A DNA stretch of 63,070 nucleotides, filler included, from Octopus bimaculoides (GCF_001194135.2; 4 parts of 4 records of this genome joined end to end with filler, not necessarily neighbours in it); one strand, 5' to 3'; positions 32,584 to 58,740 are shown, counted from the first letter of the whole stretch. Notes: a model not told the origin generated them from the sequence alone. Program-made: numbers and translations.

Positions 32584-32628
32584 GGACCACTGATGAGGTC
32601 ACAGAAGTGTGACGAAAGAACTCTGGCC
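32584..32628 (+). ncRNA. Minimal type-I hammerhead ribozyme-like motif
   Basis: cca-CTGATGA-g-gtcaca(gaag)tgtgac-GAAA-g(aa)c-TC-tgg: intact core, perfect 6-bp stem II, 3-bp stem I, CUC cleavage triplet ending at 32623. Homologous to the 58616 motif, including downstream flank. Confidence 0.68.
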
Positions 32629-34997
32629 GAAATAAGATTAAGATTAATGTAATATAAAGCTGAAGCAAATTAACACCAAATATACAGTGCATGTGTTTTT
32701 ATTGGCTAAACTGGCAATATGACCATCCCCAAGAACAACAACATATATATATATACTTATATACATACATACATATAAATATATATATTACTATGTCTGT
32801 ATGTCTATACACATATTTATCATATTTATCATTATCTTCATCACTTTCTATTCACCTTCTTGGTCATCTTACCTGGGGGTATTCTTTAGCTCCTTGTCAC
32901 TGTCATATTCATCTCCCATTCCAACACACTCCAGCCCCCCCCCGCCCCCAAATATATATATATATATACCCAAAATTTCAAGGAGTCCCTGCCTTAAAAA
33001 CAGGAACTAAACCACAGTTATTTTGTGTTCTTTGCTACATTGGTTTCTATTAACCCATTTATTCTATCAGAAGAATTTTTATTCATTAAGATAGAAGAAA
33101 TACACATAATTATATATATATATATATATATNNNNNNNNNNNNNNNNNNNNNNNNNNNNNNNNNNNNNNNNNNNNNNNNNNNNNNNNNNNNNNNNNNNNN
33201 NNNNNNNNNNNNNNNNNNNNNNNNNNNNNNNNNNNNNNNNNNNNNNNNNNNNNNNNNNNNNNNNNNNNNNNNNNNNNNNNNNNNNNNNNNNNNNNNNNNN
33301 NNNNNNNNNNNNNNNNNNNNNNNNNNNNNNNNNNNNNNNNNNNNNNNNNNNNNNNNNNNNNNNNNNNNNNNNNNNNNNNNNNNNNNNNNNNNNNNNNNNN
33401 NNNNNNNNNNNNNNNNNNNNNNNNNNNNNNNNNNNNNNNNNNNNNNNNNNNNNNNNNNNNNNNNNNNNNNNNNNNNNNNNNNNNNNNNNNNNNNNNNNNN
33501 NNNNNNNNNNNNNNNNNNNNNNNNNNNNNNNNNNNNNNNNNNNNNNNNNNNNNNNNNNNNNNNNNNNNNNNNNNNNNNNNNNNNNNNNNNNNNNNNNNNN
33601 NNNNNNNNNNNNNNNNNNNNNNNNNNNNNNNNNNNNNNNNNNNNNNNNNNNNNNNNNNNNNNNNNNNNNNNNNNNNNNNNNNNNNNNNNNNNNNNNNNNN
33701 NNNNNNNNNNNNNNNNNNNNNNNNNNNNNNNNNNNNNNNNNNNNNNNNNNNNNNNNNNNNNNNNNNNNNNNNNNNNNNNNNNNNNNNNNNNNNNNNNNNN
33801 NNNNNNNNNNNNNNNNNNNNNNNNNNNNNNNNNNNNNNNNNNNNNNNNNNNNNNNNNNNNNAAATTCTGTTTGTTCCACCACCACCACCACCACCACTAT
33901 GCAAGCAGGGTTTAGAAAAGTAAGTACATGGCTCACTTTAAAATTCTTCAAAGTGGTGCCTCAGCATGGCCACCATCTAACGTGGCCCTTCTGTTTTCCA
34001 CTCCCAGATTCCACAAATAAACACATATTGCCTACAGCAGACCCAGAAGTGATGTCCCTTCAAAACTGCCACCCGGGTTCGGACACCCAGCTATGCTAGT
34101 GTATGTGTGTGTGTGTGCAGATCTATATCTTTTCTTTTTCTTTCTTATTCTTCTATCAGTCATTGGACCATGGCCATGCTAGAGCACCATGTTGGTGAAT
34201 TTAGTCAAACAAATCAATCCTTTTACGCATTTTTAAATCCACTACTTATTCTATTAGTGTTTTAGTCTGAACTGCTAGGTTACAAGGATGCAAACAAACT
34301 AGCACTGGATATCAAGCAGTGTTGAGTGACAGACACAGACACACACACATTGATACATTCATACATACATACATACATATACATATGGTATAGGATGGGC
34401 TTCTTTCAGTTTCCATCTCCTAAGTACATTCACAATGCTTTGGTTGGCTTGAGGCTATAGAAGAAGACAGTTGCCCAAGATGCCATATAGTGGGACTGAA
34501 CCCAGAGCCATACAGCTACGTGTGTGTGTGTGTATGTGTATATATGTATGTGTGTGTGTGTGTAATTACACACATATGCACGTAAACTAACACACGCATA
34601 TATTCATTAATACATATGTGGGCATATGTTTTCATTCAGATTTAGTCTCATAAGTACATATGCACACATATACACACACACACACATGTGCACACCCACA
34701 CACTAACATACATGCACACACCCACATGTACATTCATAGACACACATACATGTATGTTCACGTACACATGCACACCCACACACACATGCCCAAACAAACA
34801 GACACACACACAGATGCATACACACATACACACGTGCACACACTGACAAACATACATGTATATTCACACACAAACACACGGATACACACATACACACACA
34901 GACACACAGGCATATACACACACACAGGCACACACACACACACACAGATACACACACGCACATGGATACACACACACATACATGTACACTCACAGAG

Positions 34998-35031
<34 letters not shown>

Positions 35032-35282
35032 TAGTACTTCATACCATTAGCATGAAACCCTTATGTATTAATTACATTTTAAACTTGGCTCTTAATTATC
35101 TTCGAAAATAGTAACGAAGAAGAAATATACTAAAGAATAAACAAAATGAAAAAAAAAAATTACAAACCATAATCAGACAAACNNNNNNNNNNNNNNNNNN
35201 NNNNNNNNNNNNNNNNNNNNNNNNNNTTAATTAATTAANNNNNNNNNNNNNNNNNNNNNNNNNNNNNNNNNNNNNNNNNNNN

Positions 35283-35333
<51 letters not shown>

Positions 35334-35339
35334 GCAAAT

Positions 35340-35625
35340 GTATGATTTTTCTTTGAGTTTTAGTTAGGTTCTTCGTGATTTATGTATGTATGTATGTATG
35401 TATGTACTTTTCTGTCTCTTTTAAAAGTTTAGAGCAAATTTTGACCGGCCACCTACTTGGTAGCAACGTTATGAAGGAAAGTATGTTGTTTTAACTATCA
35501 TCCTTTACATCTTAAGAAGGTCTTGTAGATATTTATAGTCTCATATATCATGATCATTTGCAGTTTTTGAATTAAGGATTTGCATTCTCTCCTACAAGAT
35601 CCGAACTTCTGCCATACTTTGCTCC

Positions 35626-35672
<47 letters not shown>

Positions 35673-55989: not shown

Positions 55990-55993
<4 letters not shown>
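55148..55993 (-). mobile_element. RTE-clade LINE 3' fragment with an inverted 5' segment (55699-55993 reads on +)
   Basis: Minus: AMVHKQRLRWTGYLIRMKDSRIPKQMLYG...PRLRFK...CNVCSRVCLSRAGLISHQRS*. Plus: LQRATNSFRSLQSRVWSQHG...TKVAVYRTCVLTSLLYSCETWTLY...LERFHQRCLRHIL...IEAMVLKQRL. (CATA)n on both sides. Confidence 0.88.
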
Positions 55994-56020
<27 letters not shown>

Positions 56021-56450
56021 AAACCAAGAATACCCTGTTGGTGATGCTGAAATTCCAACGAAGGAGCCTTGAATCTAGGTTAGAAACCGACTCTTTTTCT
56101 ATTGGCAAGAAATCTTAAAATAAAACTGAACAATGACATATATAACAGAAACTTTGCTGAGAATATGGTGTGTTTCCAATAGTATTTCCAAACTTTCAAT
56201 TTACGGAAATAGAAAACAAGTATGTCAACCAACGAATTTCTCAACAACACTAACCACTCTGTATAAATCAGCAATAAAATTACTCATGAAACGGCGATAA
56301 TAAAGAGACCTATAAAATACATATGATTTAATAAGCAAAAAACCAGTCTGACGGGTAAAAGAACATTTCAGTGGTGTTAAAGATGGTCAAAATCTCACCG
56401 AAACTAATTAATTCGGAACAGTACATTTTGTTATCACTTCCTTCTTTTAG

Positions 56451-56513
<63 letters not shown>

Positions 56514-56589
56514 TGTGTGTGTGTGTATACTTCTGGATATATGTAAGACAAATTTACATAACAGACACATACACACATGTATGTATGTA

Positions 56590-58270
56590 GGTATGCGAGC
56601 ACCAAGACTACACTCAAGGGTCACATATTTAAGTATAATAACAAGATAAACTCCCAAGAGGAGGGTGCAGCCATCGGTGTCAGTATCGCTGGCGATTTGG
56701 TTAACCTATTTATGGTATGGTGGGATAGAAGACTCAAAGAGAAATTAGCAGAAAACACCATAGACCTAATCATGTACTCCCGCTATCTGGATGGTATGAA
56801 CATAGTAGCCAAAATACCCATACAAGACAATCCTGATGATCTAGAAGCTAACACTATGGAGAACATCTACCAGTGTCTATACACTGGTGGATAGACTACC
56901 CTAACAAGCACCTGAACTTTAATACACTGGTGGATAGACTACTCTTACAAGCACCCCAACTATAAGTTACCTGTTTTAGACACGGAACTCTGGCTAGAAA
57001 CTAAGAATAGTAAGGTCCAGATCCTTCACTCCTATTATGTCAGACTCATGGCCTGTTAGTACTTTGTTCACAAGAACGCAACTATCGCCGACAACGCCAT
57101 GTTCAACATTCTTATAGTTGACTTGATGAGAGTGATGAGGAATGTGTCTTGCATGTGCGACACTATGAATTGGAAAGGCGCATACAACACTTCATCCACC
57201 GCCTGCAGTTCTCTGGCTACAACCAAAGAGACAGGATTAGAGTGTACAAAGGAGCCAGGACTAACTACAACGCCATCATAGAGAGTGAATGTAAGGATAT
57301 CTGCCTGCCAAACAGGAGTAAATCCTGGAACAGCTCAGAAAAGATCAGAAATAAGATAAATAAAGCCAACTCATAGTATGATAATGAAAAGATACCAGTG
57401 TGTCATATTCGTTGATGCTACCCCTGGCGGCGAACTAGCATACCTTTTCAGAAAATCATTAAGTAAGGCCAATCTACGGATTAAAGTAGTAGAAATGCTT
57501 GATGACCCTATAAAATCCCTGATCTGTAGAACTTATGTCTTTGATAAGTCCCCATGCACAGAGAGCAATTGCATTGTATGTAGAATGAACCCACGGGTTA
57601 ACTGTAAGTTTAGGAATGTAGTATGTAGCTTACGATGTACTGAGGAACGGTGCAGCAACATGGCAACTACTTATATTGAAGAGACTGCACGCATCATAGG
57701 AGAGCGTATAGGTGGACACTGGTGAGGGTTCAAAGAAGAAAAAGGCTCGTCAGTGCTCTACCAACATGCTGAAGTAGAACATAGAAGCCCGATCAATAGC
57801 ATAATGTTTAAAGTATTATCGACGCATAGAACTGACACGAAACTTAAACAGATCATAGAGGCGACACACATAGCAATAGACAGACCGAGCCTCAATAGAA
57901 AACATGAATGGAACAATAAAACCCACCACCACACCACACAACACAGATACAAACAGGGTAACACACACACAATGGATATATATGCACATACCTGTGATAA
58001 ATATAAGAAATAGATAAATTAATAAATGAATATATTATCACATACCTGTGATAAATATAAGAAACAGGGATATATAAAAAAAATATATAAATAACTAAAT
58101 AAAGCCTCTATATAAAGGGCACTGAAACAAAGAATGTAGGAAGCGAACCCATATACACACACAAACACACATACAATAACTTCGCAGACGGCCGCAACAA
58201 TATCAAGAACACGAATTACAACGACAACAGTATCAGCAATGACAACCATTGCGACGACGACGACGACGAT

Positions 58271-58306
<36 letters not shown>

Positions 58307-58740
58307 AACGATGGCAACAGCGTGGATGAACACATAAACACTGAGAAATACAGGAACTATACCAAATTTCGGGTCCTAGGACAGCAGCAGCGACAATGGG
58401 GGCAGGGAAAGGGCTAAAAAGAAGGTCGTAGAGCTATTAAGATCAATGACATACACATATGTACATACACATACACACATATACACACATGTAAGCATAC
58501 ACACATGTAAGCATACACACACACAAACACTGACGCAAACGCATGCGCATATGATGATACATATAGAAGAACAGAATCAAATAAAGGGAGTAAGAACCCA
58601 CATGAAGGCGGAAAGTGTCGCTGAAGAGGTTACAGATGTGTGACGAAAGATTTCCAGACAATGAACATGAGTTACAATAAGAACAGTAATGAACGAGTGA
58701 AGAACGAATATATAGTGCGTATGTTTATTTGGCCAAAAAA
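56590..58740 (+). mobile_element. 5'-truncated, decayed Penelope-like retroelement (probably Neptune clade): RT + Cys-rich linker + GIY-YIG + 3' pseudo-LTR
   Basis: RT motifs QEEGAAIGVSIAGDLVNLFMVWWD, YSRYLDG and LPVLDTELW; VIFVDATPGGELA; linker CTESNCIVC; GIY-YIG VVCSLRC...TYIEETARIIGERIGGH...IEATHIAIDRPSLN. Contains frameshifts and stops, plus a ~43-bp tandem duplication at about 56876-56960. Confidence 0.88.
58616..58660 (+). ncRNA. Minimal type-I hammerhead ribozyme-like motif in the 3' repeat of the Penelope-like element
   Basis: tgtcg-CTGAAGA-g-gttaca(gatg)tgtgac-GAAA-g(at)t-TC-cagaca. Stem I is 5 bp with one bulged A. Located about 600 nt downstream of the PLE GIY-YIG coding end. Confidence 0.68.

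What the first reader, a model, noticed from the sequence alone, without database searches (positions are those of the whole stretch)
32584..58660. Four hammerhead-like self-cleaving RNA motifs in 26 kb, all on the PASK sense strand
Seen: CUGANGA/stem II/GAAA/NUH architectures at 32590, 53644 (CCGAUGA variant), 54790 and 58621, all on +. A fifth CTGAAGA at 53863 runs into an N gap. They fall into three sequence types. Known: minimal type-I hammerheads with short palindromic stem III occur in Penelope-like element repeats and are thought to cleave as dimers. Inference: a hidden layer of PLE- or retrozyme-like RNA elements, invisible to ORF annotation. If the PASK pre-mRNA extends across them, self-cleavage could affect its processing.
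Basis: partly seen in the sequence, partly recalled or inferred. Interest (0 to 1): 0.75.

Follow-up and report, generated by a model that had tools for sequence, protein, structure and literature searches.

The report
Penelope retroelement hammerheads in octopus DNA
Four hammerhead-ribozyme motifs are really there, but they are tail ends of four separate, very common jumping-gene families of a known kind; three lie on a different chromosome from the PASK gene, and the one that likely sits in a PASK intron is a lone young copy predicted to cut poorly.

Summary
The four motifs are real: 5 descriptor hits against 0.13 in shuffles. The 26-kb cluster on PASK is an artefact of the packed window. 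32590 lies on C17 beside three PASK exons; 53644, 54790 and 58621 lie on C5. Each belongs to a separate dispersed family. 32590 (young, about 99% identical copies) and 58621 (old) end Neptune-type Penelope-like elements (PLEs); a decayed RT/GIY-YIG ORF lies at 56595-57947. 53644 ends a Hydra-type PLE whose family carries a CCGAUGA core. 54790 is a ~340-nt ORF-less retrozyme-like unit; its family cut site maps to 54831, not 54823, and this copy has lost U16.1. The fifth motif (53863) is not a hammerhead. 32590 is probably intronic and sense in PASK, whose next exon lies on another contig; RNA reads neither show nor exclude transcription across it. Likely role: cutting element RNA out of tandem transcripts, as dimers for the PLE types; these copies are mostly passengers. 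The class is known (PMC4209133, PMC7229834), and this scan already noted such elements elsewhere in this genome.

The parts
21651..21785 (+). PASK kinase-domain exon (about residues 1198-1242 of the octopus homologue P0005)
   Evidence: phmmer to PDB 3dls_A PASK, E 3e-14; tblastn
23842..23902 (+). PASK exon, 3' part (its 5' part is in the N gap)
   Evidence: tblastn P0005 1290-1311; sequence
24484..24617 (+). Last PASK exon found in this stretch (residues 1310-1353). The next exon (1354-1399) is on unplaced contig C64629; residues 1400-1447 were not found
   Evidence: 100% to P0005; the splice phase of the two exons matches (sequence)
32540..32743 (+). Family A: 5'-truncated 3' end (pseudo-LTR stub) of a young Neptune-type PLE, inserted in (TA)n; probably in a PASK intron (inferred)
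   Evidence: Best 40 copies 99-100% identical; 1-3 differences in 201 nt to 29 copies; fixed 3' end, ragged 5' end; PLE ORF upstream on the same strand in 6 of 60 loci
32584..32628 (+). Hammerhead A: intact core, extra base after A9, 6-bp helix II, 2-bp helix III, short helix I; predicted site after 32623
   Evidence: (core intact in 20 of 21 copies)
53102..53762 (+). Family B: 3' UTR and pseudo-LTR of a Hydra-type PLE, 5'-truncated
   Evidence: Best other copies 91-97% identical; boundaries; B hammerhead 795-1161 nt downstream of the endonuclease in 12 of 24 other endonuclease-chosen loci; CxCX5C linker in 15 of 25
53640..53687 (+). Hammerhead B: C at position 4 (family state), A.G where G10.1-C11.1 is usual, 7-bp helix II, perfect 8-nt palindrome, 4-bp helix I; predicted site after 53683
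53763..53870 (+). 3' extension of the B element running into a gap; holds the 'fifth' CTGAAGA, which is not a hammerhead
   Evidence: 6 of 6 other copies read CTGAAAC with no helix II or GAAA; extension shared by several B copies
54662..54754 (-). Inverted partial copy of the family C unit, next to the forward copy
   Evidence: 80% match to the C unit
54741..55035 (+). Family C: partial copy of a ~340-nt ORF-less, retrozyme-like unit
   Evidence: Copies about 70-88% identical; tandem spacing 305-349 nt at 4 independent sites; unit 3' end directly upstream of the ribozyme in 13 of 29 loci
54785..54836 (+). Hammerhead C, decayed in this copy (U16.1 to C; first helix I pair broken); family site after 54831, 5-bp helix III inside a 14-nt palindrome
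   Evidence: Alignment A1
56595..57947 (+). Decayed PLE ORF (RT 3' part, thumb, CX4CxxC linker, GIY-YIG endonuclease) with stops and frameshifts; family D
   Evidence: tblastn E 2e-94 to P0001 and E 6e-68 to P0002; homologues match RVT_1 and GIY-YIG below Pfam cut-offs; linker in 11 of 25 loci
57948..58767 (+). 3' UTR and pseudo-LTR of the family D element
   Evidence: D hammerhead 456-743 nt downstream of the ORF match, same strand, in 18 of 24 other ORF-chosen loci; 3' boundary
58615..58659 (+). Hammerhead D: intact core, same helix II type as A, wobble-palindromic 2-bp helix III; second helix I pair broken in this copy; predicted site after 58654
45684..45783 (.). Pack joint (a second one at 35183-35282) that separates the PASK stretch from the three C5 motifs; not genomic

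Best explanation
The four motifs are hammerhead-type 3' ends of four separate repeat families (three Penelope-like retrotransposons and one ~340-nt retrozyme-like unit) that likely cut the element's own RNA during transposition, while these particular copies are likely inactive or near-inactive passengers with no shared link to PASK. Shown: family membership, position downstream of RT/GIY-YIG ORFs for A, B and D, fixed 3' and ragged 5' ends, (TA)n flanks, adjacent inverted copies, and tandem units for C. Inferred from PMC4209133, PMC6765202 and PMC7229834: in a tandem transcript, two ribozymes pair through the palindromic helix III and cleave; the released RNA is reverse-transcribed from its 3' end at a microsatellite nick made by the element's endonuclease; early termination leaves 3' stubs such as A and B. 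C likely borrows PLE enzymes and may cleave as a monomer when intact. The three C5 motifs within 5 kb likely reflect independent insertions of different ages into a PLE-rich, microsatellite-rich spot.
For: Mapping to C17 versus C5. ORF-to-ribozyme linkage: D 18 of 24 other loci, B 12 of 24, A 6 of 60, with ORF pieces 80-87% identical to P0001 in four of them. Clade motifs. End structure, tails and inverted copies. In copies chosen without the ribozyme in the query, the 12 core letters differ less than the flanks: D 7/216 against 177/1546 (p<0.001); B non-CpG 2/150 against 79/1220 (p=0.009). This points to selection on the core in the source lineages. Unrelated families keep the same helices with different letters. 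Similar motifs occur on both strands in random DNA: 4 hits in 511,831 bases, 2 + and 2 -.
Against: No cleavage was measured. Covariation within families is weak (17/500 and 43/500 shuffles reach the score; helix I changes in D look like CpG decay). In C the core decays as fast as the flanks (41/400 against 311/2821), and in B the all-site difference is not significant (p 0.06-0.07). Monomer folds have z-scores of only -0.6 to -1.3, and for B, C and D the lowest-energy fold is not the active one. Pfam scores for the ORFs stay below the curated cut-offs. Stretch 4 is denser than random DNA (3 in 16 kb against 0.125 expected, P 3e-4 uncorrected), and the reason for this is inferred, not shown. 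No autonomous partner was found for C.
Confidence: 0.88

Rival explanations
1. The 32590 copy cleaves PASK pre-mRNA, in cis or by pairing in trans with other family A RNAs, and so changes PASK processing.
For: Sense orientation; at least one and probably two PASK coding exons lie beyond 24617 and none is in the sequenced part up to 35182, so the copy is probably intronic. The core is intact. Family A sequence is present in RNA (depth 61-106 in that bin, multi-copy).
Against: Solitary copy, 2-bp helix III, self-duplex of the helix III segment +1.4 kcal/mol. Single minimal motifs showed no cleavage and dimers little (PMC4209133). Slow hammerhead cuts in introns are reported not to block splicing (PMC2995048 passages). 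The insertion is very young. No read start or end pile-up is listed at 32623/32624 (a weak test).
Confidence: 0.05
2. The motifs are real element parts but catalytically idle even in source elements; the structure is kept as a protein-binding or reverse-transcription signal, or hitch-hikes.
For: B multiplied with C4 and without G10.1-C11.1; U4C is reported to lower activity considerably in vitro (PMC3088659). Naiad PLEs spread without canonical hammerheads (PMC8557442). PMC4209133 itself leaves other functions open.
Against: All other catalytic positions and the NUH site are kept in four families, and the core is better conserved than the flanks in B and D. CYGANGA is an accepted core (PMC13481778).
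Confidence: 0.2
3. The three C5 motifs form one composite element or a selected ribozyme cluster.
For: Three within 5 kb on one strand; local density well above random DNA.
Against: Different ages (about 94%, 80% and 84% to their families), separated by unrelated repeats; no recurring shared arrangement among fetched loci. Three on one strand has a chance of 1 in 4. A D copy 16 kb away lies on the - strand.
Confidence: 0.03
4. Chance matches to a short motif.
For: No Rfam hit; weak folding z-scores; one chance-like hit at 25901 passes the same descriptor.
Against: 5 hits against 0.13 in shuffles; fixed position at PLE 3' ends; conserved core.
Confidence: 0.01

Closest known systems
Minimal type I hammerheads in pseudo-LTRs of metazoan PLEs (Cervera and de la Pena 2014, PMC4209133; parts 1-2 of 4 read)
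   Same: Long helix II, short helix I, extra base after A9, palindromic positions 15.2-16.2, many families, mostly solitary truncated copies, pairs on opposite strands; A and D fit fully.
   Different: B lacks the G10.1-C11.1 pair and carries C4. No octopus example appears in the parts read; the supplements were not opened.
Neptune (or Nematis) EN+ PLEs (Craig et al. 2021, PMC8557442; passages)
   Same: C-terminal GIY-YIG with a CX2-5CxxC linker, microsatellite targets, tails and inverted 5'-truncated copies, for families A and D.
   Different: No tree was built, so Neptune and Nematis are not separated; only fragments were seen.
Hydra-clade PLEs (PMC8557442, section 11 read)
   Same: Family B: CxCX5C linker, CxxC and CxH beside the conserved E and N, (TA)n insertion, 3' hammerhead.
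   Different: Long 3' UTR (about 0.8-1.2 kb) and a deviant core; the RWK and DKT motifs were not checked.
Metazoan non-LTR retrozymes (PMC7229834 passages; bioRxiv 10.64898/2026.07.22.740005 part 1 of 5)
   Same: Family C: ORF-less tandem units of 305-349 nt with a type I hammerhead, like the mussel 350-390-bp units; PLE-like insertion scars.
   Different: Mostly monomers or partial dimers among the loci seen; longer palindromic helix III; circular RNA not tested; the window copy is decayed.

Membership tests
PLE minimal type I hammerhead | Conserved core CUGANGA ... GAAA ... UH | tested here: met
   A and D intact; B has the accepted C4 variant; the C family is intact but the window copy has lost U16.1
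PLE minimal type I hammerhead | Unpaired base between positions 9 and 10.1, and a G10.1-C11.1 pair | tested here: met
   Met for A, C and D
PLE minimal type I hammerhead | G10.1-C11.1 pair, family B | tested here: not met
   A opposite G closes helix II in B
PLE minimal type I hammerhead | Palindromic helix III / loop 3 | tested here: met
   B perfect 8 nt (-11.1 kcal/mol self-duplex), C 14 nt with wobble (-12.3), D with wobble only (0.0), A partial with two A.A mismatches (+1.4)
PLE minimal type I hammerhead | Lies in the 3' repeat of an RT + GIY-YIG ORF | tested here: met
   D 18 of 24, B 12 of 24, A 6 of 60; not met for C
PLE minimal type I hammerhead | Compensatory changes in the helices | tested here: inconclusive
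   17/500 and 43/500 shuffles reach the score; clear only between families
PLE minimal type I hammerhead | Self-cleavage as a dimer | not testable with these tools
   Needs an in vitro assay
Neptune-type PLE (A, D) | CX2-5CxxC linker before a C-terminal GIY-YIG | tested here: met
   11 of 25 D loci keep the exact pattern; it is also present in P0001, which A ORF pieces match at 80-87%
Neptune-type PLE (A, D) | RT phylogeny against reference clades | not tested
Hydra-clade PLE (B) | CxCX5C linker in place of CX2-5CxxC; CxxC and CxH beside E and N; (TA)n targets | tested here: met
   15 of 25 loci with CxCX5C, 0 of 25 with CX2-5CxxC; translations; flanks
Hydra-clade PLE (B) | RWK and DKT motifs; RT phylogeny | not tested
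   N-terminal part not recovered
Non-LTR retrozyme (C) | ORF-less tandem units of 150-450 bp with a type I hammerhead | tested here: met
   Spacing 305-349 nt at 4 independent sites; circular junction in 13 of 29 loci; no Neptune-type ORF in 30 loci; the one Hydra-type ORF upstream (L082) did not recur in 29 other copies of that PLE
Non-LTR retrozyme (C) | Expressed as linear and circular RNA, efficient cleavage | not tested
   No reads were laid on C

The most novel reading that the evidence does not exclude
Thousands of solitary sense-strand PLE hammerheads in octopus introns, the young intact copy at 32590 in PASK among them, are switched on in trans by pairing with abundant same-family RNAs, so that retroelement expression cuts host pre-mRNAs. 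A milder version: family B is an active natural ribozyme variant (C4 plus A.G at 10.1-11.1) rescued by its perfect 8-nt dimer helix.
Probability: 0.04. Interest if true: 0.7.

Novelty: new member of a known kind. Interest (0 to 1): 0.2.

Why it matters
As it stands this is ordinary. It adds octopus members to a described class and corrects a false gene link made by the packed window. Two things remain useful. The genome probably holds on the order of 10^4 intact-looking motifs (3-4 per 512 kb) that Rfam does not see. Family B offers a natural test of whether PLE hammerheads must cut: it multiplied with two departures at the core while keeping the rest. If solitary intronic copies were cut in trans, retroelement activity would have a direct route to host RNA processing, but nothing here shows that.

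Tried and rejected
Rfam scans: no hammerhead family. Pfam on window ORF pieces at 56.5-58.0 kb: 0 families for 4 pieces; PDB search with a D-family RT: 0 hits; homologue search with the B endonuclease: 0 of 49 candidates passed. The idea that C is the pseudo-LTR of a Hydra-type PLE, raised by L082, was rejected: 0 of 29 other copies of that PLE carry C, so L082 is a one-off chimera. My early note that older B copies have U4 was dropped: T at position 4 (3 of 15, 3 of 25) matches decay at the other CpG sites. Searches for the last PASK exon in 40 kb downstream on C17 and 20 kb on C24 found nothing. Run search: no RNA holder listed. Reads of three RNA runs (one study, about 6% of each run, unstranded) on 21560-33131 were dominated by repeats; PASK depth was only 5-6, so the zero-depth unique bins cannot exclude intronic transcription. 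The fold of L073:1540-1880 overshot the unit and was not used. Lunse et al. 2016 (PMC5785218) was not held; I saw only its reference entry, so I cannot say whether it already lists the B-type core. Literature searches for octopus hammerheads (0 main-text occurrences of hammerhead, ribozyme or retrozyme in PMC13282606) found no description, but supplements of PMC4209133 and PMC8557442 were not opened and may list them.
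Full report
1. Layout. The window is a pack of four stretches with joints at 4014-4113, 35183-35282 and 45684-45783. Stretch 2 holds three PASK kinase exons (PDB 3dls, E 3e-14; 100% over 44 residues to an Octopus sinensis homologue) and the motif at 32590; it maps to C17:15.24-15.25 Mb. The motifs at 53644, 54790 and 58621 are in stretch 4, which maps to C5:75.89 Mb. The 26-kb span and the common PASK strand are therefore products of packing. That the genome is an octopus is inferred from the best protein matches.

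2. Are the motifs real? A descriptor for C(U/C)GANGA, helix II of at least 5 bp and GAAA gives 5 hits in the window: the four named and one at 25901 (-) in a degenerate tandem repeat. 300 local dinucleotide shuffles give a mean of 0.13 and at most 2. Rfam returns no hammerhead model on these stretches, and monomer folding z-scores are only -0.6 to -1.3. The fifth motif at 53863 is not a hammerhead: it lies in the 3' extension of the 53644 element, and 6 of 6 other copies that reach it read CTGAAAC with no helix II.

3. Family D (58621). A decayed ORF at 56595-57947 matches long RT/GIY-YIG proteins (E 2e-94 to P0001). These score RVT_1 and GIY-YIG only below Pfam's cut-offs, but the motifs are visible in the translations. 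Of 25 loci chosen by the ORF alone, 19 carry the D hammerhead 456-743 nt downstream on the same strand (18 of 24 without the window's own). A CX4CxxC linker survives in 11 of 25, the mark of Neptune/Nematis PLEs (PMC8557442 passages). Copies are 81-88% identical to the window copy. This copy has a broken second pair in helix I.

4. Family A (32590). The element is a 204-nt stub between (TA)n tracts. The best 40 genomic matches are 99-100% identical, and 29 copies differ from it at 1-3 of 201 letters. All share the 3' end; 5' ends are ragged; several have a 45-nt tail or an inverted piece upstream, as described for PLE insertions. In 6 of 60 loci a PLE ORF piece lies 349-1430 nt upstream on the same strand, four of them 80-87% identical to P0001 (a seventh locus had an ORF hit but no ribozyme). 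A is thus a young sister family of D; the two share helix II but are 69% identical overall.

5. Family B (53644). Walking upstream led to a different endonuclease. Of 25 loci chosen by it, 13 carry the B hammerhead 795-1161 nt downstream on the same strand (12 of 24 without the query locus). The core has C at position 4 in 12 of 15 and 22 of 25 copies; the T copies match decay at other CpG sites, so C4 is the family state. Helix II closes with A opposite G instead of G10.1-C11.1. Helix III is a perfect 8-nt palindrome. U4C is a known variant with lower activity in vitro (PMC3088659), and CYGANGA is used in descriptors (PMC13481778).

6. Family C (54790). The alignment of 19 copies shows a 5-bp helix I, a 5-bp helix II and a 5-bp helix III inside a 14-nt palindrome, with the site after the position equal to 54831. 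Same-strand neighbours lie 305-349 nt apart in 6 of 30 loci (4 independent sites) and inverted neighbours in 12 of 30 (8 sites); in 13 of 29 loci the unit's 3' end lies directly upstream of the ribozyme. This fits non-LTR retrozymes (PMC7229834 passages). Two of 30 loci had Hydra-type ORF pieces; the one upstream on the same strand (L082) did not recur in 29 other copies of that PLE.

7. Selection and covariation. In copies chosen without the ribozyme in the query, the 12 core letters differ from the majority less than the flanks: D 7/216 against 177/1546 (p<0.001); B 6/180 against 86/1246 (p 0.07; non-CpG 2/150 against 79/1220, p 0.009). In C there is no difference (41/400 against 311/2821), and A is too young to test. 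Intact cores: D 11 of 18, B 10 of 15, C 9 of 34, A 20 of 21 (only copies aligned over most of the query were counted). Within-family covariation is inconclusive. Between families the helices pair with unrelated letters. I read this as selection in source lineages followed by decay of inserted copies; that is inference.

8. Density. Sixty evenly spaced 10-kb stretches (511,831 non-N bases) gave 4 descriptor hits, 2 per strand, 3 of them clear by eye. The window would be expected to hold 0.45 and stretch 4 0.125, so three in 5 kb is a real local excess (P 3e-4, not corrected for how windows were chosen). The neighbourhood holds more such elements: a fourth type about 8 kb past the stretch (L239, +), a D copy on - (L123) and a B copy about 40 kb upstream (L217, +). 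PLEs are reported to insert in or beside earlier copies (PMC6765202). The three differ in age and no shared arrangement recurs, so independent insertion is the simplest reading.

9. PASK. In this assembly the gene is split: residues 5-1199 on C24 (-), 1198-1353 in stretch 2, 1354-1399 on the 516-nt contig C64629, and 1400-1447 not found. The splice phase joins 24617 to the C64629 exon. As neither remaining exon is in the sequenced part up to 35182, 32590 is probably intronic and sense, unless both hide in the 375-N gap or the scaffold is misjoined. Three unstranded RNA runs from one study, laid on 21560-33131, gave depth 5-6 on the exon bin, zero in four unique bins between the exon and the element, and 61-106 on the element bin from multi-copy reads, with no start or end pile-up listed at 32623. 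This neither shows nor excludes nascent transcription. Published data argue against an effect: single minimal motifs did not cleave and dimers did so weakly (PMC4209133), and slow hammerhead cuts in introns did not stop splicing (PMC2995048 passages).

10. Mechanism and verdict. Shown: four families, their structure, and their position at element 3' ends. Inferred: dimer cleavage of tandem element transcripts, target-primed reverse transcription at (TA)n, and 5' truncation leaving stubs; C is likely mobilised in trans. Not shown: any cleavage. These are new members of a described class. Seven earlier notes of this scan report such elements on other pieces of this genome (unchecked AI notes, not counted as support). 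Papers seen: PMC4209133 parts 1-2 of 4; PMC8557442 passages and section 11; passages of PMC7229834, PMC6765202, PMC3088659, PMC2995048, PMC13282606 and PMC13481778; bioRxiv 10.64898/2026.07.22.740005 part 1 of 5; no supplements. Hammerhead position numbering follows the convention as I recall it. Interest 0.2.

Noticed in passing
window 4114-35182 (G000 C17:15.22-15.25 Mb), C24:25.97-26.04 Mb, C64629: PASK is split over three contigs; stretch 2 is probably a scaffold misplaced on C17 that belongs inside the gene on C24.
   Followed up: partly
L082 (C5:52.46 Mb): A C unit is joined, right at helix I, to the 3' UTR of a third, Hydra-type PLE family; a one-off chimera, perhaps a template switch.
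   Followed up: yes
L303-L332: A further Hydra-type PLE family (CxCX5C in 13 of 30 loci); its own 3' end was not searched for a ribozyme.
   Followed up: partly
L239:8450 (+), L234 (-), L299 (-), L245 (-): Hammerheads of other families, one with an 8-nt perfect palindrome and a 4-bp helix I, two sharing one helix II type, one a diverged C relative.
   Followed up: no
L134: An A element sits 236 nt downstream of a D ribozyme on the same strand, giving a near-tandem of two related ribozymes.
   Followed up: no
window 25430-26350: Degenerate tandem repeat of about 21-27-nt units with no RNA depth; source of the chance descriptor hit at 25901.
   Followed up: no
window 39584-40177 (+): Fragments that look like a PIF1/Helitron-type helicase (label recalled, from translations).
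   Followed up: no
window 17314-17664, 11870-12280, 58960-59620 (+): Tc1/mariner-like transposase remnants (label recalled).
   Followed up: no
window 45939-47160 (+) and 61676-62684 (-): Two related ORF1-like remnants with zinc-knuckle-like motifs (label recalled).
   Followed up: no
window 44670-44850 (+); 55222-55980: LINE-type RT fragments (RVT_1 E 0.003 for the first; two pieces in opposite orientation for the second).
   Followed up: no
window 54226-54630, 30130-30550, 21930-22110 and others: Copies of abundant SINE-like repeats (label recalled); those within the laid stretch dominate the RNA depth.
   Followed up: no
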